This document shows positions 21,449 through 34,071 of a stretch of DNA of 50,015 nt, piece by piece. Both the position numbers and the translations under genes were made by a program. Within the stretch, counting starts at the first letter, position 1, and every line of letters starts with the position of its first letter. The DNA is from a virus (lineage: Duplodnaviria; Heunggongvirae; Uroviricota; Caudoviricetes): IMG/VR virus record IMGVR_UViG_2917403263_000001; one strand, 5' to 3'. Under the pieces are notes generated by a model. The model was given only the letters and a program-made list of their open reading frames with translations. It had not been told where the DNA came from and made no database searches.

Positions 21449-22750
21449 TTAAATCCGAAGTGATGTGACTCTTCCGGTCGGTTTGACAATAGGGAATTGC
21501 TTAACGATGAAATAACCTCCGGCATCATTCGGGTGATCGTTGCCAGATTTTTTATCAGGCTCCCCTTTATCATCCCAGACCTGTTGCTCCAGAGATTCGG
21601 CATATACCGGACAACGCTTCACATTAACTTTATAGCGACGCTCGCCATTGGCATTGCAGAACATTGCATTCATTGAGTTAACGCGATCTTTTACTGGCGG
21701 GTTCGAGTTGTTCACCACAACGTTAAAACCAGCCTGCTTAAGCTGAGCTATATCCGTCGTACTTGCGTTACTTGATTTTCTGGAATCTCCGGAAGCATCT
21801 GGATAAATATAAATCTCCCTCACTTTCCGATAATCATTCCCGTCATACAGCCAGAAGCGTTCTTTAATGATGCGAATCATATCCGGCGTATCGTAGGCAT
21901 TGATGATTTCAGTTACCGCACATGGAAGACCCAAACGCAGCACATGGATGATCCCCGCCATCTTTCCAACGTTAAAATCCATCCCAATATAAATCGGCTC
22001 CCCTGGCTGCTCCACTTCTTCGCAATTATTCAGTTTCCGGTCAAACTGATGGTAAACCGTACCACTTGTCAGGTTAGTAAACTGTCCTCGAAGATAGGCT
22101 TTAATCAGCTCTGGAGGGTATGATTCAAGAAGCGAAGGAATGTAATCTGCTGGCAGGTTCTTTTCATTATCGAAAGTAGATGCCTGCACCAAACCATACA
22201 GTGAGGCCAGCTCTGTTTTTTCACGCACGGCTTTAACAAACTGCTCGTAGACAAATTTGAATCCTTCCGGCGTGGTTGTAACGTCAATACCGTTGCGAAG
22301 TCCATCAACCTTATAACGCATACGCGCAATTATCTTGCGCCACGCTGTTCTGGCTTTTTCCTTCGGCAAAATGTCCAGTTCATCCACCAGTGCATTACCA
22401 ATTTTGAAACCGACGATCGTTTGCGGCTTCTCCATCGATCTGCAGATAGTGGTTCCCCGATACTGACGTCCGTAATAAAAATGAACCTCTTTATTTCCCT
22501 CATTAATTTTTACGTTCAATCCCCAGTCAGCAGCAACTTCTTCCACTGTAGGGTAAAAAATATCGCGAATTTGGGGATACGTTGGCGCAAAATATCCCTG
22601 ATTTATACCTGGATGCTCCCAAATCCCTTTGCATATGCCGCCACACCCAACCCATGTTTTACCCGAGCCAAAACCAGCAATATAGGCTTTAAATTTATGG
22701 GGCATTGAAAGAAATCGCGCCTGAGGCACATTAAGCGTCGGAGAGATCAT
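21449..22750 (-). CDS. Terminase large subunit
   Basis: Start chosen at MISPTLNV... (AAGGAG 8 nt upstream); Walker A motif GFGSGKTW; 433 aa. Confidence 0.85.
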   Translation of the reverse strand: MISPTLNVPQARFLSMPHKFKAYIAGFGSGKTWVGCGGICKGIWEHPGINQGYFAPTYPQIRDIFYPTVEEVAADWGLNVKINEGNKEVHFYYGRQYRGTTICRSMEKPQTIVGFKIGNALVDELDILPKEKARTAWRKIIARMRYKVDGLRNGIDVTTTPEGFKFVYEQFVKAVREKTELASLYGLVQASTFDNEKNLPADYIPSLLESYPPELIKAYLRGQFTNLTSGTVYHQFDRKLNNCEEVEQPGEPIYIGMDFNVGKMAGIIHVLRLGLPCAVTEIINAYDTPDMIRIIKERFWLYDGNDYRKVREIYIYPDASGDSRKSSNASTTDIAQLKQAGFNVVVNNSNPPVKDRVNSMNAMFCNANGERRYKVNVKRCPVYAESLEQQVWDDKGEPDKKSGNDHPNDAGGYFIVKQFPIVKPTGRVTSLRI

Positions 22751-23825
22751 CTTCATCACTCCTTGCTCTTGCATCAACCACATTAATATTGATCGCCACA
22801 GGCTGGGGATGTTCATTATCTTCCACCGTTTCGATCTCTTTACGCAGCTTCTGGTTTTCCATTCTGCGCCGTTCAATTTCCAGTTCCTGTAGCCGCTTAT
22901 CTGCACATAAAGCCCCGCCAGCAGAAAGCAAACGCAACAATTCACGCCGGGCGGCAGCTTTATCCTCCAGCAGGATCTCAACACCGAATTTTCCTAGCTT
23001 TGCCCCTGCATATAATTGCCGTGCATCCCCATCAAGCAGAGTGGTATCAGCCATATAAAGCTGCCCCGTTCCCTCACCGCAGCACTTCGGGCAGTCCGGA
23101 TTGGGTATGGCGTTATCAACAAAGCCAAGCCCTCCATATTCCGGTTCGGGTTTGCCATCTCTGGAAGCCTGCGCCGCTGCCTTATCAAATTCTGCTATAT
23201 CGCGCCACTGGTAGAGATGATTCTCGCCCCAGCAATAACGGCAGTTAACACGGCGAAATTGGGCAAGCTGATTGGGGTCGGCCTGGACAATGGACATCAA
23301 CTGACTCACCAGTAAATCCAGGTCTGCGGTATAGCGTTTCTGGTACTGATTGCGGAAGTAGCTGATAGCACGAAAAACCTTAGGATTTCTTAGGAGCTGG
23401 CTGGCGGTTACGTAGGCCGCATTCCCCTCTGACTCGTATCCTGCCAGCCGATATGCCTCAACGAGTTTTTTCCCCTGGGCAACCAGCATTGCGAATTTCG
23501 CCTGCTGGTCTGAAATACCGAATTCATCGGGACAGAACGAAATTTCTTCCGCATCGCCCTCATTCAGGTACGCATCGGATACTGGCTTTTTTTCCTGAGA
23601 TTTTCCGTTCCGCTTTTGTGCAGTCTGCGCAGATTTTTTCTGCGCACTTTTCTGCGCAGTTTTGCGCATTTCTGTCTGCGCATTTTTCGGAGGTTTTTTG
23701 ATGTAACGACGGGCTGTTGCGTAATTCAGTCCCCTTGCTTCACACCATGCCACCGGAGATATACCGGAGCGGGTGTATTCAGCAATATACTCCTGCTGCA
23801 ACGCCCCCCAGTCCGGTCTGCTCAT
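22731..23825 (-). CDS. Terminase small subunit (N-terminal HTH, basic AQK repeats, Terminase_2-like core, CxxC...CxxC zinc ribbon)
   Basis: 364 aa directly upstream of and overlapping TerL; motifs AKFAMLVAQGKKLVEAYRLAGY and CRYCWG...CPKCCG. Confidence 0.75.
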   Translation of the reverse strand: MSRPDWGALQQEYIAEYTRSGISPVAWCEARGLNYATARRYIKKPPKNAQTEMRKTAQKSAQKKSAQTAQKRNGKSQEKKPVSDAYLNEGDAEEISFCPDEFGISDQQAKFAMLVAQGKKLVEAYRLAGYESEGNAAYVTASQLLRNPKVFRAISYFRNQYQKRYTADLDLLVSQLMSIVQADPNQLAQFRRVNCRYCWGENHLYQWRDIAEFDKAAAQASRDGKPEPEYGGLGFVDNAIPNPDCPKCCGEGTGQLYMADTTLLDGDARQLYAGAKLGKFGVEILLEDKAAARRELLRLLSAGGALCADKRLQELEIERRRMENQKLRKEIETVEDNEHPQPVAININVVDARARSDEDDLSDA

Positions 23826-23828
23826 CAG

Positions 23829-24080
23829 TTAGTCCTGATTCTTATCCACCCTGAGTAGTTCGCGCAGGGCAAAGGCATCCCCTTTTCTGGCGAGCTTAAA
23901 CAATGCCGCCCGTAGCTCGGCCTCACCTTTCGCTCTGCCCTTACGGATGGACGCGTAAAAATTTGTCATTGCTTCCCGATTTTCTTTCAACCGGTTCAGA
24001 TCAACATCCAGAACGTCAGCGATTTGTTGTGCAGTCATCCGGCACGCTGCCAGAGACTCGACTTTCGAATACGGAATCAT
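23829..24080 (-). CDS. Small HTH-like protein upstream of terS
   Basis: 83-aa ORF abutting terS; contains MTAQQIADVLDV, a helix-turn-helix-like segment. Confidence 0.5.
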   Translation of the reverse strand: MIPYSKVESLAACRMTAQQIADVLDVDLNRLKENREAMTNFYASIRKGRAKGEAELRAALFKLARKGDAFALRELLRVDKNQD

Positions 24081-24948
24081 TTGTCACCCCCATTGATATG
24101 CAGGGTGTCTTCTTCCTGTATTTTTCGTGAAGGATTTTTACTGCAGCGTTGTTCCAGGTGACCTGATGGTGAATGCGTTTATGGCTGGCGCCCATCAGTG
24201 AGATTTTTACGCACGACGGCGCATACATGACGGAGTAAAAACTTTTAACGTAGGTTCCGGAATCCAGATACAGCTCGGTCATTCCGCCGCTGTTTTTCTG
24301 CGTCTGTTTCTGCCCTAACTGGACAGCACCGATCGTCATAAACAATTCACCACGGCGACCAAGATTCGTGTACGTATTCACATCCTCGTTAATGCGCCCC
24401 ATGAATGAGAACGGTCGTTCAACCGAACAGATAAAGCTGTTCATTGCCTTGCGTTTCACCCACGAAGCATGGCCGCCATTGTCACCAAGAAAATCCCCGC
24501 CCTGTGACATAGCGATGGAAAGCGCGGGTATTGATTCGTAATACGCCAGCATTTCAGAAAGGATCGCATCCAGTTTCCTTATCGGGAAATAGGCCTGGTC
24601 ATAGTTGCGATCCACACGAAACTGGAACTCGTGATAATCATCATCGAGCTGAATGAAGTATTTACACCCGACCAGTTTTGCCAGGTCGAAACAGGCATTA
24701 CGGGCGTAAAAAATTGAGCGGCGATCACCGAAATTATCGGCTTCGTCAAAACGACTGGCGATATCGGCTTTGGAAAACACCAGCACCTGTTCACCAAATT
24801 CAGCTATGTACTGATGCCGTGTCTTATCTTCATCATCAACAACGATAAAAATTTTCCCGGTATAGCCAGCACGACGCAACGTCCGGTAAGTCAGAACTTT
24901 GTCCGGTCGCCCGTGAGTCAGAATAAAGGCGCAAAAATCATCACGCAT
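24016..24948 (-). CDS. GT-A-fold glycosyltransferase-like protein (3-prime end uncertain)
   Basis: Motif series FILTHGRPD ... GKIFIVVDDED ... YFIQLDDDY resembles the GT-A beta1 / DD / DxD layout. The ATG at 24948 follows GGAGAAGGA and overlaps the stop of the upstream gene (ATGCGTGA). The 65-nt overlap with the next ORF suggests the C-terminus may be affected by another indel. Confidence 0.55.
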   Translation of the reverse strand: MRDDFCAFILTHGRPDKVLTYRTLRRAGYTGKIFIVVDDEDKTRHQYIAEFGEQVLVFSKADIASRFDEADNFGDRRSIFYARNACFDLAKLVGCKYFIQLDDDYHEFQFRVDRNYDQAYFPIRKLDAILSEMLAYYESIPALSIAMSQGGDFLGDNGGHASWVKRKAMNSFICSVERPFSFMGRINEDVNTYTNLGRRGELFMTIGAVQLGQKQTQKNSGGMTELYLDSGTYVKSFYSVMYAPSCVKISLMGASHKRIHHQVTWNNAAVKILHEKYRKKTPCISMGVTNDSVFESRVSGSVPDDCTTNR

Positions 24949-25729
24949 ATTCCTTCTCCCCGCCATGCATGATCTCCACCATGTGCTGCGTCATCCGGAC
25001 AAATCCATTTTCAATAGCCTGCTGGTAATCAATGATCACCAGCGCCGACTCCTCAAAAAGGCGCTGAATTTCAGCAGGAGCGTGAGCGTAATAGTCCGCA
25101 ATTCTGCTGAAATTAAACACCGTGTGACGTTCTGCCGCACACAGGAGGAATTTTTCGATATCAGGCTCAAGGGACGCCGAACGTATCCGGCTGATCAGCT
25201 CCTGAGTTTTCGTATCGTCGTACAGTTCACTGATATCCGGTTTACCGCCCGACGGCTCATAAACAGGCGTATCAATTTTCGTCGTATAAGGCTCCTCCTC
25301 ATTTCCTGTACCGGGCAAAACATCCGTCAACAGTTCATCAATTTCTGTCGGGCTGAATCCTGTCAGGGAAATATCAAAATCAGCATTGATTAGCTCCGAC
25401 AGCTCCATCCGTAACAGATCTTCATCCCAGCCAGCATTCATCGGCAGGCGATTATCTGCCAGGCGGTACGCCTTTTTCTGATCATCCGTCAGACCAGACA
25501 GAACGATGACCGGAACGGAATCCATTTTGAGCACTTCAGCCGCCATAACGCGACCGTGACCAGCAATAATTTCGCCCTTTTCATCAATCAGCACCGGATT
25601 AGTCCAGCCGAATTGCTTAATGCTTTCTACCAGTTGTGCCACCTGCTCAGGGCTGTGTGTCCTGGCATTGTGTGCATACGGAGACAGTTCTTGTAACGGG
25701 CGATAGACGATCTTCAATTTCTCGCTCAT
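24941..25729 (-). CDS. ParB-like (ParB/Srx fold) N-terminal domain protein with an unknown C-terminal domain; no methyltransferase domain
   Basis: 262 aa. Residues 1-95 (LKIVYRPLQELSPYAHNARTHSPEQVAQLVESIKQFGWTNPVLIDEKGEIIAGHGR) fit the ParB nuclease-like domain. No DPPY/FxGxG methyltransferase motifs were seen. Confidence 0.7.
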   Translation of the reverse strand: MSEKLKIVYRPLQELSPYAHNARTHSPEQVAQLVESIKQFGWTNPVLIDEKGEIIAGHGRVMAAEVLKMDSVPVIVLSGLTDDQKKAYRLADNRLPMNAGWDEDLLRMELSELINADFDISLTGFSPTEIDELLTDVLPGTGNEEEPYTTKIDTPVYEPSGGKPDISELYDDTKTQELISRIRSASLEPDIEKFLLCAAERHTVFNFSRIADYYAHAPAEIQRLFEESALVIIDYQQAIENGFVRMTQHMVEIMHGGEKEYA

Positions 25730-26133
25730 ACAGCCTCGCTTTATGAATAAAAAAGCCCGCTATCGGCCAGTGCGCTGGGTGCGCGGCGGGTGCCGATGAC
25801 GAGCTTTGGCATTATCGCCCCCCCTCACCATGAAGGGCTGCTGTAATGCCTGTTACTCACGAATCAAACGAGTATGCTGACCGCTCATTTCAATGCGTAA
25901 GTATTGTGGCTTGCCGTCAATCAATGCGGTGATTAACTTGTCACCAGTAGGTTTCCACATAATTTTCTCCTGTTTTAATGCCCCTTGCCGCCCGGGCAGT
26001 TGATCAAAGTTCATCTTGATTCGGCAAGATTTAGAATGAATAAGATAAAATTGGCACACGCAGCAGAATTTCATGCTTTCCGTACGCTGGCGCACCCATC
26101 ATTTTCAGCAAAATATTCTGCTCTTAAAGGCGA

Positions 26134-32263: not shown

Positions 32264-33385
32264 CTAGTGAATTTTGCCTCTAAGAGTTCGGTAAGATTGT
32301 AGTGAAACAACATCACCACTTCCTGGCAGTTCATGAACCGCAGGAAGATCATCTCCAACTAACTCATAAAAAATGTCCACTTCTATATCCATTTCATCAG
32401 CTATACGCTGTGGGTCGTATCCTAACTCTTCAAATAAAAACGATAAAGCCCGACGGAATAACTCAGGACGCTCATGAGGGATTAGATAATCTTCTTTTTC
32501 ATCAATAGCTTCCCCTTTCCGTTTCAACCCCATAAATGCAGTTCTGTACTGCTCATCAGTCAAAAGTCCTAATTGATGAGCCCTGTAAACAATGGCAGCC
32601 TTACTTACTTTCCATGTCAACTTAAATTGGCTTAGTCCCTGCCAATTTATCCTCCCCCCCACAGGTCTTGGAAAATATTTCGCCATCGACGTTCTGGGAA
32701 GCAACAGAGCAGAGGCAAAACGGTTTGCCTGGGATTCAGTTAATCTATCACCAGTAGAAATTCCTTCATGAAGAATCAAATGGGCAACCTCATGAGCAAT
32801 ATCAAAGCGTTGCCTACAAGGTGAATTTTTAGCTGTATTTCGAACAATAAAAGGCCTTCGTAGAGGAACAGACAGTGCATCTACTTCATCCGAAACGGAG
32901 TCAAATGAAGTAACAAACGCCCCAAGTTTCTCGGCCAGGCGAGTCATATTTTCAATTGGGCCAAAGCCTAAGCCCCACTCAATACGACATTTTTCTGCCG
33001 CTCGCTCGATATCTTCTTGTGTATGGACACGAAATTCAGGAAATCGAACAGGTGACAAATTAAGATTATCTTCAAATACATCAATAAAACGACGATAAAA
33101 CTCAGCCTTAGCGAGTGTTGATAGCTTCGTTGACATCCTTGTCGAGGCGCGTTTACGAAAATGTACAATCTCTTCATTAACAGGAGAATGTTCCTGCCCT
33201 TCGAAAAAGGCGGGCTTCACGCGCAAAACCTCGGCTAATTTATTTATAAGCTCTGGGGATGGAGTAGCTGAACCAGACTCCAGTCGCTGTACATACTGGC
33301 GTGTTTTTTCAACCTTCTCAGCAACCTGCTCCAGAGATAGCTCGTGATACAGACGAGCAAGTCTTAAATTAGTACCGTTAAACAC
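32264..33385 (-). CDS. HTH-XRE plus ImmA/IrrE (M78, COG2856) zinc-metallopeptidase fusion protein; RmrA-like antitoxin/sensor candidate
   Basis: 373 aa. N-terminal LRLARLYHELSLEQVAEKVEKTRQYVQRLESG is an XRE-type HTH. HEXXH motif in FDIAHEVAHLILHE, followed by the E..AN.FA pattern typical of ImmA/IrrE. Confidence 0.8.
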   Translation of the reverse strand: MFNGTNLRLARLYHELSLEQVAEKVEKTRQYVQRLESGSATPSPELINKLAEVLRVKPAFFEGQEHSPVNEEIVHFRKRASTRMSTKLSTLAKAEFYRRFIDVFEDNLNLSPVRFPEFRVHTQEDIERAAEKCRIEWGLGFGPIENMTRLAEKLGAFVTSFDSVSDEVDALSVPLRRPFIVRNTAKNSPCRQRFDIAHEVAHLILHEGISTGDRLTESQANRFASALLLPRTSMAKYFPRPVGGRINWQGLSQFKLTWKVSKAAIVYRAHQLGLLTDEQYRTAFMGLKRKGEAIDEKEDYLIPHERPELFRRALSFLFEELGYDPQRIADEMDIEVDIFYELVGDDLPAVHELPGSGDVVSLQSYRTLRGKIH

Positions 33386-33395
33386 ATTTCACCCA

Positions 33396-33989
33396 CTATT
33401 TGCTATTTTGTTTCTTTTCCTTCTCAGTCTTAGACGCACTGATAGGTTCTAGTTCGATAGGTACCGGTGCTGGAGGTACATCATCGACAGAGTTCAGCAT
33501 AACAACACGGTCCGCACCATATGTCCAAGTTGACACGATCTCACCAAACACGTTATAGCCATTAAAAATGACTTTACCACCCTCGCCTTCAAATTCAGGC
33601 TTTTCAACCACAAAGCGATGCATAGTTGGAGTGGTCTCCTCTGACTCAAAGAGTCGATCAGCATCGTTTCTTTTGAAAAAACCGCGTTTCTTGGGATTAT
33701 CTGCGTCATCAGTAAAGAAACGAATAGGGACATTCCCAATTGAAAACGTAAGATCCATGCCAGGATTAAGTAGTCTTAACCAGTCATATGTCTTTCGTAC
33801 GCACATTTGTAGCAACGCCTGCCGCTGACGCCCAAATGTACAACCACCACGAGTGTAATTATCATCATAGGGCGATGACAATAACTCATGAGTAATATCC
33901 TGTATCCTGAGCAACTCCTCAGCTATTATGGTTAAACGATCCTCTGTTAACTCAGGAAAGAACTCCCAAGGGAATGGATGGTTCTGCAT
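33396..33989 (-). CDS. Unknown 197-aa protein, partner of the HTH-peptidase (toxin/effector candidate)
   Basis: ATG at 33989, 9 nt after GGAG (the track ORF starts at an upstream TTG); 10-nt gap to the downstream gene; no recognisable motif. Confidence 0.6.
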   Translation of the reverse strand: MQNHPFPWEFFPELTEDRLTIIAEELLRIQDITHELLSSPYDDNYTRGGCTFGRQRQALLQMCVRKTYDWLRLLNPGMDLTFSIGNVPIRFFTDDADNPKKRGFFKRNDADRLFESEETTPTMHRFVVEKPEFEGEGGKVIFNGYNVFGEIVSTWTYGADRVVMLNSVDDVPPAPVPIELEPISASKTEKEKKQNSK

Positions 33990-34024
33990 AGACACATCTC
34001 CGTCTAATCCGTGCAAAAAACGAC

Positions 34025-34071
34025 TTTTGTCAACCAAGATATTGGTGCATATTCATAATTTTGTCAACCAA
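34025..34071 (-). promoter_or_regulatory. Cassette promoter TTGACA-N17-CAATAT flanked by two 13-bp direct repeats TTGGTTGACAAAA (operator candidates)
   Basis: On the minus strand: -35 at 34062-34067, -10 at 34039-34044; repeats at 34059-34071 (over the -35) and 34025-34037 (over the predicted start site). Confidence 0.5.

What the first reader, a model, noticed from the sequence alone, without database searches (positions are those of the whole stretch)
24016..25729. Translationally coupled ParB-like / GT-A-like gene pair between lysis and packaging modules: candidate DNA-modification system
The 262-aa protein has a clear ParB/Srx-type N-terminal domain. In phages this domain is normally fused to an N6/N4 DNA methyltransferase. 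Here the C-terminal 160 aa carry no methyltransferase motifs. Its stop overlaps (ATGCGTGA) the start of a roughly 310-aa protein whose motif series (FILTHGRPD, IVVDDED, QLDDDY) looks like a GT-A nucleotide-sugar transferase with a DxD site. There is no signal peptide, TM segment or flippase partner, which argues against O-antigen conversion. A DNA-targeting domain paired with a soluble glycosyltransferase next to the packaging genes suggests glycosylation or another hypermodification of phage DNA (anti-restriction). I do not recognise such a system in lambdoid phages.
Basis: inference. Interest (0 to 1): 0.7.

Follow-up and report, generated by a model that had tools for sequence, protein, structure and literature searches.

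The report
ParB-like adaptor plus TAGT glycosyltransferase pair
Two overlapping late genes just upstream of the prophage's DNA-packaging genes encode a sugar-transferring enzyme of a known DNA-glycosylating family and a ParB-like partner; the pair is conserved next to the terminase in phages of bacteria and archaea, yet these phages lack the enzyme that normally makes the base this family sugar-coats, so its target is unknown.

Summary
On the minus strand, a 262-aa ParB/Srx protein (24941-25729) ends inside ATGCGTGA, which starts a 310-aa GT-A glycosyltransferase (24016-24948). The second protein is already catalogued as Pfam PF20691 TAGT ("TET-associated glycosyltransferase"; NCBI name "GREB1-related"). 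The first is "ynaK". The pair occurs in 1568 of 5426 complete E. coli genomes.

The same overlapping pair, in the same order and mostly just upstream of the terminase genes, occurs in Lactobacillus, Nocardia and Porphyromonas phages, a haloarchaeal virus and prophages of many phyla. A ParB-like gene lay upstream in 33 of 33 loci where this could be judged. No TET/JBP, hydroxymethylase or C5-methyltransferase accompanies it, not even in the whole 31.8-kb genome of phage c5.

The partner's C-terminal 120 aa are an unannotated, highly conserved domain. In a Vibrio jumbo phage this domain alone precedes the glycosyltransferase. The N-terminal ParB module is the one fused to DNA methyltransferases in other phages.

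Best reading: a two-subunit, late-expressed glycosyltransferase of the phage "ParB-terminase" DNA-modification locus, acting on DNA around packaging, with an unknown acceptor. Protein glycosylation is the main rival. It is a new variant of a known kind, of moderate interest, and directly testable in E. coli.

The parts
24941..25729 (-). Gene for the 262-aa ParB/Srx-like partner protein ('ynaK' type). It has an N-terminal NTP-binding ParB domain, a helix pair, an acidic linker with a conserved motif, and a conserved C-terminal domain.
25430..25729 (-). ParB/Srx N-terminal nucleotide-binding domain (about res 1-100). N21, G57, A63 and N93 are invariant; R23 and R60 are nearly so. The GERR glutamate is replaced by His or Asn.
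25307..25729 (-). N-terminal 141 aa (NBD plus helix pair). This is the module shared with the N-termini of phage DNA methyltransferases.
   Evidence: PHROG 498 E 3.5e-51. PADLOC MTase_II E 4e-38. tblastn found 543 phage records, many annotated as methyltransferase.
25253..25288 (-). Conserved linear motif YTxKIxxPxYEP (res 148-159) in a predicted disordered linker. Y148, P155 and Y157 are invariant in 27 diverse sequences.
24980..25222 (-). Conserved helical C-terminal domain (about res 170-250) with no Pfam family. R201, D234, E226 and Y214 are invariant and H202 nearly so. It is the GT-specific adaptor and occurs without the ParB domain in a Vibrio jumbo phage.
24941..24948 (-). ATGCGTGA: the 8-nt overlap of the ParB-like stop and the GT start (translational coupling).
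   Evidence: The overlap is conserved in 29 of 32 loci.
24016..24948 (-). Gene for the 310-aa TAGT-family GT-A glycosyltransferase ('GREB1-related protein').
24637..24645 (-). Codons for D102-D103-D104, the invariant DxD metal / nucleotide-sugar site.
23829..24080 (-). Small ORF (83 aa at most; annotated as 69 aa in a near-identical prophage) with a terS-like HTH. It is overlapped by the 3' extension of the Escherichia-type GT gene and belongs to the packaging module, not to the conserved pair.
22731..23825 (-). Terminase small subunit (downstream context).
   Evidence: Pfam Terminase_2 and PHROG 51.
21449..22984 (-). Terminase large subunit ORF, given as the longest ORF. The true start probably lies near the terS stop.
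25745..25807 (-). Hairpin followed by a U-run, about 20 nt upstream of the ParB-like start. It resembles an intrinsic terminator between the lysis genes and the pair.
   Evidence: -33.6 kcal/mol, z -2.5, and 0 of 200 shuffles fold as well.

Best explanation
The two genes encode the two subunits of one late-expressed glycosyltransferase module. It belongs to the phage 'ParB-terminase' DNA-modification locus.

The 310-aa protein is the catalytic subunit. It is a TAGT-family GT-A enzyme that uses a nucleotide sugar, with DxD, QGGD, NEDVN and RxHH motifs.

The 262-aa protein is its obligatory partner. Its conserved C-terminal domain and YTxKIxxPxYEP motif bind the enzyme or complete its acceptor site. 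Its N-terminal ParB/Srx NTP-binding module is the same one that other phages fuse to DNA methyltransferases. That module gates the enzyme or holds it on double-stranded DNA, as a ParB-like protein does for a phage thymine dioxygenase.

The complex is made 1:1 by translational coupling, from the late transcript, together with terminase. It puts a sugar on replicated phage DNA before or during packaging, probably to blunt host nucleases or to mark DNA for packaging.

Shown here: the folds, the family membership, the pairing, the gene order and the absence of a hydroxylase. Inferred: the physical complex, DNA as the substrate, the timing and the benefit. The acceptor group is unknown and cannot be phage-made 5hmC or 5hmU.
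For: 1. Family. Pfam TAGT scores 122 bits against a 27.5 cutoff and PHROG 842 gives E 1e-102. The fold is GT-A. TAGT members include the T6-type enzyme thought to add the second glucose to glucosyl-hmC DNA (PMC13390438). The family is related to the base-J glucosyltransferase (PMC7968844).

2. Partner. The N-terminal 141 aa are 30-55% identical to the N-termini of many phage DNA methyltransferases. NTP-contact residues are conserved: N21, G57 and N93 in 27 of 27 sequences, R60 in 26 of 27. The predicted layout is NBD, helix pair, disordered linker, CTD, with no DNA-binding domain. This matches ParB176, which activates its dioxygenase on dsDNA (PMC13229309).

3. Obligate pairing. A ParB-like gene lies immediately upstream in 33 of 33 loci that could be judged, across many phyla. 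The same holds in phages of Lactobacillus, Nocardia, Porphyromonas and Haloarcula. The stop and start overlap in 29 of 32 loci. In Vibrio phage pv27 only the motif plus CTD (52% identical) precedes the GT, inside a replication-gene cluster.

4. Packaging context. terS, terL or portal genes of at least five unrelated Pfam terminase types follow the pair. In phage c5 the pair starts 90 bp from cos. ParB-terminase loci were predicted to modify DNA during packaging (PMC4738411).

5. Universal substrate. The GT is 41-49% identical between E. coli, Lactobacillus and Nocardia phages and a haloarchaeal virus, with about 55 invariant residues. This argues for a substrate common to all hosts.
Against: - No enzyme that makes a hydroxylated base is present. 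None (TET/JBP, thymidylate-synthase-like hydroxymethylase, C5-methyltransferase) is annotated in a closely related E. coli prophage or found among the ten window ORFs scanned. None occurs in the three genes on either side in 22 diverse loci. None lies within 10 kb in metagenomic phages. None is in the whole c5 genome. Canonical DNA offers no known acceptor for this family.
- The partner is strongly acidic in every lineage (pI 4.1-5.4, net charge about -20). It has no recognisable DNA-binding domain.
- One TAGT relative, GREB1, glycosylates a protein (PMC7968844).
- The AF2 models are only moderate (mean pLDDT 65). The GT C-terminal third and the partner CTD are poorly modelled, so no structural argument about the acceptor site is possible.
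- No experiment on this pair was found.
Confidence: 0.45

Rival explanations
1. Protein glycosylation. The GT puts a sugar on a protein rather than on DNA. The most likely target is the invariant Tyr/Thr of its partner's YTxKIxxPxYEP motif, in a glycogenin-like or toxin-like Tyr/Thr O-glycosylation. Another packaging protein is also possible. The modified acidic protein would then act in packaging or be injected as an anti-restriction factor.
For: - GREB1, a TAGT-domain protein, O-GlcNAcylates ER-alpha (PMC7968844).
- The partner carries an invariant Y..T..Y motif in a disordered linker.
- The partner is as acidic as known DNA mimics (the comparison is from general knowledge).
- There is no acceptor-making enzyme for DNA.
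Against: - The partner's N-terminal module is the one that phages couple to DNA methyltransferases and dioxygenases (PMC13229309).
- In the jumbo phage the pair sits among replication genes.
- A pure substrate would not need invariant Arg-His, Asp and Glu residues in a folded domain.
Confidence: 0.2
2. Small-molecule or nucleotide glycosylation. The complex modifies a nucleotide, a dNTP-pool component or an immune signalling molecule late in infection. It would be a counter-defence enzyme that merely resides at the moron-rich lysis/packaging junction.
For: - The lysis-terminase junction commonly hosts accessory genes (general knowledge).
- A universal small-molecule substrate would also explain cross-domain conservation.
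Against: - The position next to terminase holds for at least five unrelated terminase types and in archaeal viruses. This is more than moron clustering in lambdoids.
- No PADLOC hit apart from the methyltransferase-like N-terminus.
- No precedent in the TAGT family.
Confidence: 0.1
3. Orphan remnant of a TET/JBP-TAGT pathway. The GT still needs 5hmC or 5hmU and is idle, or works only when a co-resident element or the host supplies the hydroxylated base.
For: The Pfam family is named for its association with TET/JBP. GT, ParB and terminase are the domains most often found next to phage 5mYOX genes (PMC13229309, section 12).
Against: - Thousands of homologues lack a dioxygenase yet have intact catalytic motifs.
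- The overlapping gene structure has been maintained from bacteria to archaea.
- The dedicated partner domain forms 1199 clusters at 50% identity.
- These features indicate purifying selection on a self-sufficient unit.
Confidence: 0.1
4. Packaging accessory without sugar chemistry on DNA. The ParB-like protein acts as a nuclease or NTP switch that helps terminase at cos/pac, as HNH proteins do in HK97-like phages. The GT has a separate or structural role.
For: - Stand-alone ParB N-domain genes sit directly upstream of terminase-sized genes in other phages, for example Yersinia phage vB_YpM_41.
- HNH genes lie just upstream of the pair in several loci.
- Nocardia phage NTR1 has the pair directly before terL with no annotated terS.
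Against: - The GT's catalytic motifs are invariant.
- The partner's most conserved part is the GT-specific CTD, not the ParB domain.
- In the jumbo phage the ParB domain is dispensable and the pair is not next to terminase.
Confidence: 0.08
5. Ordinary functions suggested by database names: plasmid/chromosome partition (ParB) or O-antigen/serotype conversion (glycosyltransferase).
For: GenBank phage records call the first gene 'chromosome (plasmid) partitioning protein'.
Against: - No HTH or ParA-interaction features. TIGR00180 scores 37 bits against a cutoff of 58.
- No ParA is annotated in the related prophage.
- No TM segments and no GtrA/GtrB-like genes.
- The pair also occurs in archaeal and Gram-positive phages, whose envelopes are unrelated.
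Confidence: 0.02

Closest known systems
Phage 'ParB-terminase large subunit (Tls)' DNA-modification loci (Iyer/Aravind; cited in PMC4738411 and PMC8256090)
   Same: A ParB-domain gene and a DNA-modifying-type enzyme sit immediately upstream of the terminase genes in phages and prophages. These loci are predicted to modify DNA as part of packaging.
   Different: The cases described in the papers I could read carry N6A-methyltransferases or TET/JBP. Here the effector is a TAGT with no dioxygenase, and the ParB protein carries a dedicated, unannotated C-terminal adaptor domain. I could not read the 2013 paper itself, so I cannot say whether it lists this exact pair.
ParB-dependent phage thymine dioxygenases (5mYOX176/ParB176; PMC13229309)
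   Same: A ParB-like protein with NBD, short helical segment, roughly 50-aa disordered linker and CTD, and no DNA-binding domain, is needed by a cognate DNA-modifying enzyme on dsDNA. GT and terminase genes often lie nearby.
   Different: The enzyme here is a glycosyltransferase, not a dioxygenase. No 5mYOX is present. Homology of the two CTDs could not be tested because no ParB176 sequence was available. Activation has not been shown here.
TAGT / PF20691: TET-associated glycosyltransferases, including the T6-type TAGT thought to add the second glucose to glucosyl-hmC (labelled beta-glucosyl-HMC-alpha-glucosyltransferase in PHROG 842), and related to the kinetoplastid base-J glucosyltransferase
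   Same: A full-length match to the family profile, a GT-A fold and a DxD motif. The characterised phage members act on DNA-borne acceptors.
   Different: Those enzymes need 5hmC, 5hmU or glucosyl-hmC made by other phage enzymes. The phages here encode none. This subfamily has a conserved C-terminal region (PHROG 31222) and an obligatory partner protein.
ParB-N6/N4 DNA methyltransferase fusions of phages (PHROG 498; PADLOC MTase_II model)
   Same: The N-terminal 141 aa are clearly homologous (E 3.5e-51 and 4e-38; 30-55% identity).
   Different: The methyltransferase domain is replaced by the motif plus CTD, which recruits a separately encoded glycosyltransferase.
GREB1 (human TAGT-domain protein)
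   Same: The same Pfam domain. NCBI names the phage protein 'GREB1-related'.
   Different: GREB1 is a 1949-aa eukaryotic protein that O-GlcNAcylates ER-alpha. It shares no partner, context or architecture with the phage protein.

Membership tests
TAGT glycosyltransferase (Pfam PF20691) | Match to the family profile above Pfam's gathering score, over the whole profile | tested here: met
   122.2 bits against a cutoff of 27.5, profile positions 4-205 of 205. PHROG 842 E 1.6e-102.
TAGT glycosyltransferase (Pfam PF20691) | GT-A nucleotide-sugar transferase fold with a DxD motif | tested here: met
TAGT glycosyltransferase (Pfam PF20691) | Genomic association with a TET/JBP (5mYOX) dioxygenase or another source of 5hmC/5hmU | tested here: not met
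   No such gene is annotated in a closely related E. coli prophage or found among the ten window ORFs scanned. None in 127 flanking ORFs of 22-23 diverse loci, within 10 kb in metagenomic phages, or in the whole c5 genome.
TAGT glycosyltransferase (Pfam PF20691) | Transfers a sugar to a hydroxymethyl-pyrimidine or to a sugar on DNA | not testable with these tools
   Needs biochemistry or nucleoside mass spectrometry.
ParB/Srx superfamily (PF02195) | Profile match and ParB/Srx fold | tested here: met
ParB/Srx superfamily (PF02195) | Conserved nucleotide-phosphate contacts (NPR-like box, GxxR box, DN box) | tested here: met
   N21 27/27, R23 25/27, G57 27/27, R60 26/27, N93 27/27. The GERR glutamate is His or Asn in 26 of 27. 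NTP binding itself was not tested.
Canonical partition ParB (ParABS) | Central HTH parS-binding domain, ParA partner and full-length TIGR00180 match | tested here: not met
   TIGR00180 scores 37 bits against a cutoff of 58 and matches the N-domain only. No HTH Pfam hit. No ParA is annotated in the related prophage. The protein has pI 4.6.
ParB-terminase (Tls) DNA-modification locus | A ParB-domain gene and a nucleic-acid-modifying enzyme gene directly upstream of terminase | tested here: met
   Window order is ParB-like, TAGT, HTH ORF, terS, terL, portal. The same order is seen with several unrelated terminase types.
ParB-terminase (Tls) DNA-modification locus | Modifies phage DNA in connection with packaging | not testable with these tools
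   This is a prediction in the literature as well (PMC4738411).
5mYOX-activating ParB (ParB176 type) | NBD, short helical segment, long disordered linker and CTD, with no DNA-binding domain | tested here: met
   AF2 model: NBD 1-95, helices 103-134, pLDDT below 50 for 136-169, helical 172-255. Model confidence is moderate.
5mYOX-activating ParB (ParB176 type) | A cognate 5mYOX dioxygenase encoded beside it | tested here: not met
5mYOX-activating ParB (ParB176 type) | Sequence homology of the CTD to that of ParB176 | not tested
   No ParB176 sequence was available. The supplements are not held.
T-even glucosyl-hmC pathway (the PHROG 842 label) | dCMP hydroxymethylase and a first (alpha or beta) glucosyltransferase in the same genome | tested here: not met
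   Absent from the related prophage annotation and from phage c5.
Gtr-type O-antigen glucosylation (serotype conversion) | Membrane GtrA flippase, GtrB bactoprenol GT and a TM-rich specific GT | tested here: not met
   No TM segment in either protein. No such neighbours.

The most novel reading that the evidence does not exclude
The pair is a self-contained DNA glycosylation system that needs no hydroxylase. The GT, together with the partner's C-terminal domain (invariant Tyr, Arg-His and Asp), attaches a sugar directly to a canonical DNA constituent, for example an exocyclic nitrogen or oxygen of a normal base. The ParB/Srx NTP switch controls where or when this happens during packaging. That would be a DNA modification chemistry not yet described, present in roughly a quarter of E. 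coli genomes and in phages of bacteria and archaea.
Probability: 0.15. Interest if true: 0.9.

Novelty: new variant of a known kind. Interest (0 to 1): 0.55.

Why it matters
If the pair glycosylates DNA without a hydroxylated precursor, it would reveal a new acceptor chemistry for phage DNA modification. It would also extend the newly shown role of ParB-like proteins as activators of DNA-modifying enzymes from dioxygenases to glycosyltransferases.

If it glycosylates its own partner or a packaging protein, it would be a widespread and unnoticed protein-glycosylation step in tailed-phage assembly.

Either way it is one of the most common uncharacterised prophage gene pairs in E. coli (1568 of 5426 complete genomes). 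It sits in a genetically tractable lambdoid prophage and is conserved in haloarchaeal viruses, so one set of E. coli experiments would annotate thousands of genes.

The unannotated C-terminal domain (1199 clusters at 50% identity) deserves a family definition.

Tried and rejected
- Partition function: rejected. There is no HTH and no ParA, and the protein is acidic.
- O-antigen conversion: rejected. There are no TM segments or Gtr partners, and the pair occurs in archaeal and Gram-positive phages.
- Hidden hydroxylase or methyltransferase: I looked in the window (ten early-region ORFs), the annotation of a closely related prophage, 127 flanking ORFs of diverse loci, the whole c5 genome and 10-kb flanks of metagenomic phages. 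None was found.
- Known defence or anti-defence system: PADLOC returned only the methyltransferase-like N-terminus.
- Solved structure by sequence: none for the GT.
- GT-partner fusion proteins: none among the best 150 CTD-containing representatives, whose longest member is 433 aa.
- First viral-contig scan: it returned only near-identical enterobacterial loci, so it added no diversity. The genome-contig scan supplied the diversity.
- Literature: I could not obtain Iyer et al. 2013 or the supplements of the ParB-5mYOX paper. Searches for experimental work on ynaK or this pair found only an overexpression screen of the truncated K-12 remnant.
No complex model could be made.
Full report
**1. The observation**

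The window is a Rac-like lambdoid prophage. intR, recE and recT homologues lie at about 43-50 kb. Lysis genes lie at about 26.1-28.1 kb, and terS, terL and portal at about 20.4-23.8 kb.

On the minus strand, a 262-aa ORF (24941-25729) ends in TGA inside the octamer ATGCGTGA. That ATG opens a 310-aa ORF (24016-24948).

- The first protein passes Pfam's ParB_N threshold and matches PHROG 620 over its full length (E 8e-90).
- The second matches Pfam PF20691, "TET-associated glycosyltransferase" (TAGT), at 122 bits against a cutoff of 27.5. It also matches PHROG 842, labelled "beta-glucosyl-HMC-alpha-glucosyltransferase" (E 1.6e-102).
- Neither protein has a hydrophobic segment.

The only correction is that the genes are on the minus strand.

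**2. How common it is and what it is called**

The 2-kb region matches 1568 of 5426 complete E. coli genomes. In 866 genomes the match covers at least 80% of the region. RefSeq calls the genes "ynaK: ParB/Srx family N-terminal domain-containing protein" and "GREB1-related protein".

A word-indexed protein search hit its 8000-candidate ceiling for each protein. The system is therefore not unrecognised as a pair of gene families. I found no experimental work on it. The one exception is an overexpression screen of the truncated K-12 remnant of ynaK.

**3. The pair is a deeply conserved unit**

tblastn against cultured phages found the GT in several unrelated groups:

- Lactobacillus phages phi jlb1, c5, LL-Ku and Ld17
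- Nocardia phage NTR1
- Porphyromonas phages
- the haloarchaeal virus HHTV-2
- Vibrio jumbo phages

A scan of one genome per species returned 37 loci. They came from Proteobacteria, Chlorobi, Desulfovibrionaceae, Bacteroidota, Clostridia, Planctomycetota, Saccharibacteria and Actinobacteria.

In all 33 loci with an intact GT and available upstream DNA, a homologue of the 262-aa protein lies immediately upstream on the same strand. The stop and start overlap in 29 of 32 loci examined, by 8 or 11 nt in 25 of them.

The GT is 41-49% identical between the E. coli prophage, the Lactobacillus and Nocardia phages and the archaeal virus. About 55 residues are invariant, including DDDY, QGGD, RINEDVNTY, GTYVKSFY and RxHH. 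This level of conservation across hosts with unrelated envelopes and proteomes argues for a universal substrate.

**4. Genomic context**

Pfam scans of the three ORFs downstream in 22 diverse loci found large terminases of at least five different Pfam types. They also found small terminases and portals. The three ORFs upstream are heterogeneous.

Metagenomic phages show HNH, x, ParB, TAGT, terS, terL, portal, protease, capsid. In the cos phage c5 the pair begins 90 bp from the cos site.

This is the "ParB-terminase large subunit locus" that Aravind and colleagues predicted to modify phage DNA during packaging (PMC4738411; also cited in PMC8256090). In the window, a hairpin with a U-run separates the lysis genes from the pair. 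Expression from the late transcript is inferred, not shown.

**5. What is missing**

Known TAGT-type enzymes need an acceptor made by other enzymes: 5hmC, 5hmU or a sugar on them (PMC8256090, PMC13390438, PMC13229309). I found no TET/JBP dioxygenase, thymidylate-synthase-like hydroxymethylase or C5-methyltransferase in any of these places:

- the early-region ORFs of the window
- the RefSeq annotation of a closely related prophage
- 127 flanking ORFs of diverse loci
- 10-kb flanks of metagenomic phages
- the whole 31.8-kb genome of phage c5

The pair is therefore a hydroxylase-free variant, and its acceptor is unknown. This is the main weakness of the DNA-glycosylation reading, and also the main reason the pair is interesting.

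**6. Anatomy of the partner protein**

They are not.

An alignment of 27 diverse partners shows that the C-terminal half is better conserved than the ParB domain:

- A linear motif YTxKIxxPxYEP, with Y148, P155 and Y157 invariant.
- A helical domain, FLxxAAxRHxxFxYxxIAEYYAH...Q.LME.SALVIID...AI..GY, with R201, Y214, E226 and D234 invariant and H202 in 25 of 27.

A full HMMER scan of 1.84 billion representatives with residues 140-262 found 1199 clusters at E of 1e-3 or better. Among the best 150, most are 225-350 aa with this domain at the C-terminus. About a fifth are short stand-alone proteins, and none is fused to a GT. No Pfam family covers the domain.

In Vibrio jumbo phage pv27, the gene before the GT encodes only the motif plus domain. 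It is 139 aa and 52% identical to residues 136-244. There the pair sits among primase, exonuclease, SSB and helicase genes. So the C-terminal module is the GT's cognate partner, and the ParB domain is a separable accessory.

**7. The ParB module**

Phosphate-contacting residues are conserved: N21, G57 and N93 in 27 of 27, and R60 in 26 of 27. The hydrolytic Glu of the GERR box is His or Asn.

The first 141 aa are 30-55% identical to the N-termini of many phage DNA methyltransferases (PHROG 498 E 3.5e-51; PADLOC MTase_II E 4e-38; 543 phage records by tblastn). Stand-alone copies also sit before terminase-sized genes, for example in Yersinia phage vB_YpM_41.

The predicted layout is NBD, helix pair, disordered linker and CTD, with no DNA-binding domain. 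That is the layout reported for ParB176, which activates its cognate phage thymine dioxygenase specifically on dsDNA (PMC13229309).

All partners are strongly acidic (pI 4.1-5.4), while the GTs are neutral to basic except in the halovirus. If DNA is bound, the GT must do the binding.

**8. The glycosyltransferase**

The poorly modelled but highly conserved C-terminal third may fold only against the partner. This is a guess. The shallow alignment is an equally good reason for the low confidence.

**9. Interpretation**

*Best explanation (confidence 0.45).* The genes encode a two-subunit, translationally coupled, late-expressed glycosyltransferase of the ParB-terminase DNA-modification locus. 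It acts on replicated phage DNA around packaging, and the ParB/Srx module gates or tethers it. This rests on five lines of evidence: family membership, the modular kinship of the partner with methyltransferase- and dioxygenase-coupled ParB domains, the invariant packaging (or, in jumbo phages, replication) context, the cross-domain conservation, and the obligate pairing.

*Main rival (0.2).* Protein glycosylation, most economically of the partner's own invariant Tyr/Thr motif. It is supported by GREB1's protein O-GlcNAc transferase activity (PMC7968844) and by the lack of any DNA acceptor.

*Lesser rivals.*
- Small-molecule or nucleotide glycosylation (0.1).
- An orphan remnant that still needs 5hmC or 5hmU (0.1).
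- A packaging accessory role without DNA chemistry (0.08).
- The database-name functions, partition or O-antigen conversion (0.02).

**10. Novelty and score**

The two families, their fold assignments and the ParB-terminase locus concept are already in databases and in the computational literature. What appears undescribed in the sources I could read:

- This clade works without any hydroxylase.
- The partner's C-terminal domain is the conserved, GT-specific subunit, and it can exist without the ParB domain.
- The overlap architecture is conserved from E. coli prophages to haloarchaeal viruses.

I rate it a new variant of a known kind, with interest 0.55. The most novel reading not excluded is direct glycosylation of a canonical DNA constituent (probability about 0.15).

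Noticed in passing
window 23626-23682: Five of the window's 17 TGCGCA palindromes cluster within 57 bp, spaced 10-15 nt apart. They lie in the 5' part of the terS gene, which here encodes a repetitive AQK-rich stretch. This could be a pac or TerS-binding array, or a loading site for the ParB-like protein.
   Followed up: partly
window 23829-24080 (-): A small ORF (83 aa at most) matches the HTH part of small terminases (PHROG 309). It sits between the GT gene and terS. The Escherichia-type GT is 310 aa against about 288 aa elsewhere, and its extra 3' codons overlap this ORF.
   Followed up: partly
window 25745-25807 (-): A strong hairpin followed by a U-run lies about 20 nt upstream of the ParB-like start (z -2.5; 0 of 200 shuffles fold as well). 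It resembles a terminator that late, antiterminated transcription would have to read through.
   Followed up: partly
L001 21676-21933 and 21142-21612; L085 5102-6008: In some E. coli and Shigella prophages the ParB-like gene is frameshifted or split and annotated as a pseudogene, while the GT gene stays intact. In K-12 only an N-terminal remnant (ynaK) survives. Overexpressing that remnant was reported to raise the MICs of six antibiotics (PMC12924614).
   Followed up: partly
L123 7459-8888 (Vibrio phage pv27): A jumbo-phage variant of the pair. A 139-aa protein carrying only the linker motif and C-terminal domain precedes a 333-aa GT that has an N-terminal extension. The pair lies in a replication-gene cluster rather than next to terminase.
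   Followed up: partly
L126 17837-20316; L127 8659-11138: A metagenomic phage carrying the pair also has four consecutive GT2-family glycosyltransferase genes just after the capsid gene. This resembles virion-glycosylation clusters.
   Followed up: no
L004 3-3408 (Nocardia phage NTR1): The pair lies directly upstream of terL with no annotated small terminase between them. This raises the question whether the ParB-like protein substitutes for terS there.
   Followed up: no
window 32264-33385 (-): A 373-aa protein fusing an HTH to an M78 (ImmA/IrrE-type) peptidase, in the early region. The neighbouring 213-aa ORF (33396-34037) has no Pfam hit.
   Followed up: no
L001 16162-17598: In a near-identical prophage, RefSeq labels the gene in the portal position as 'anti-CBASS protein Acb1 family protein'. 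This looks like a naming problem or a fused domain.
   Followed up: no
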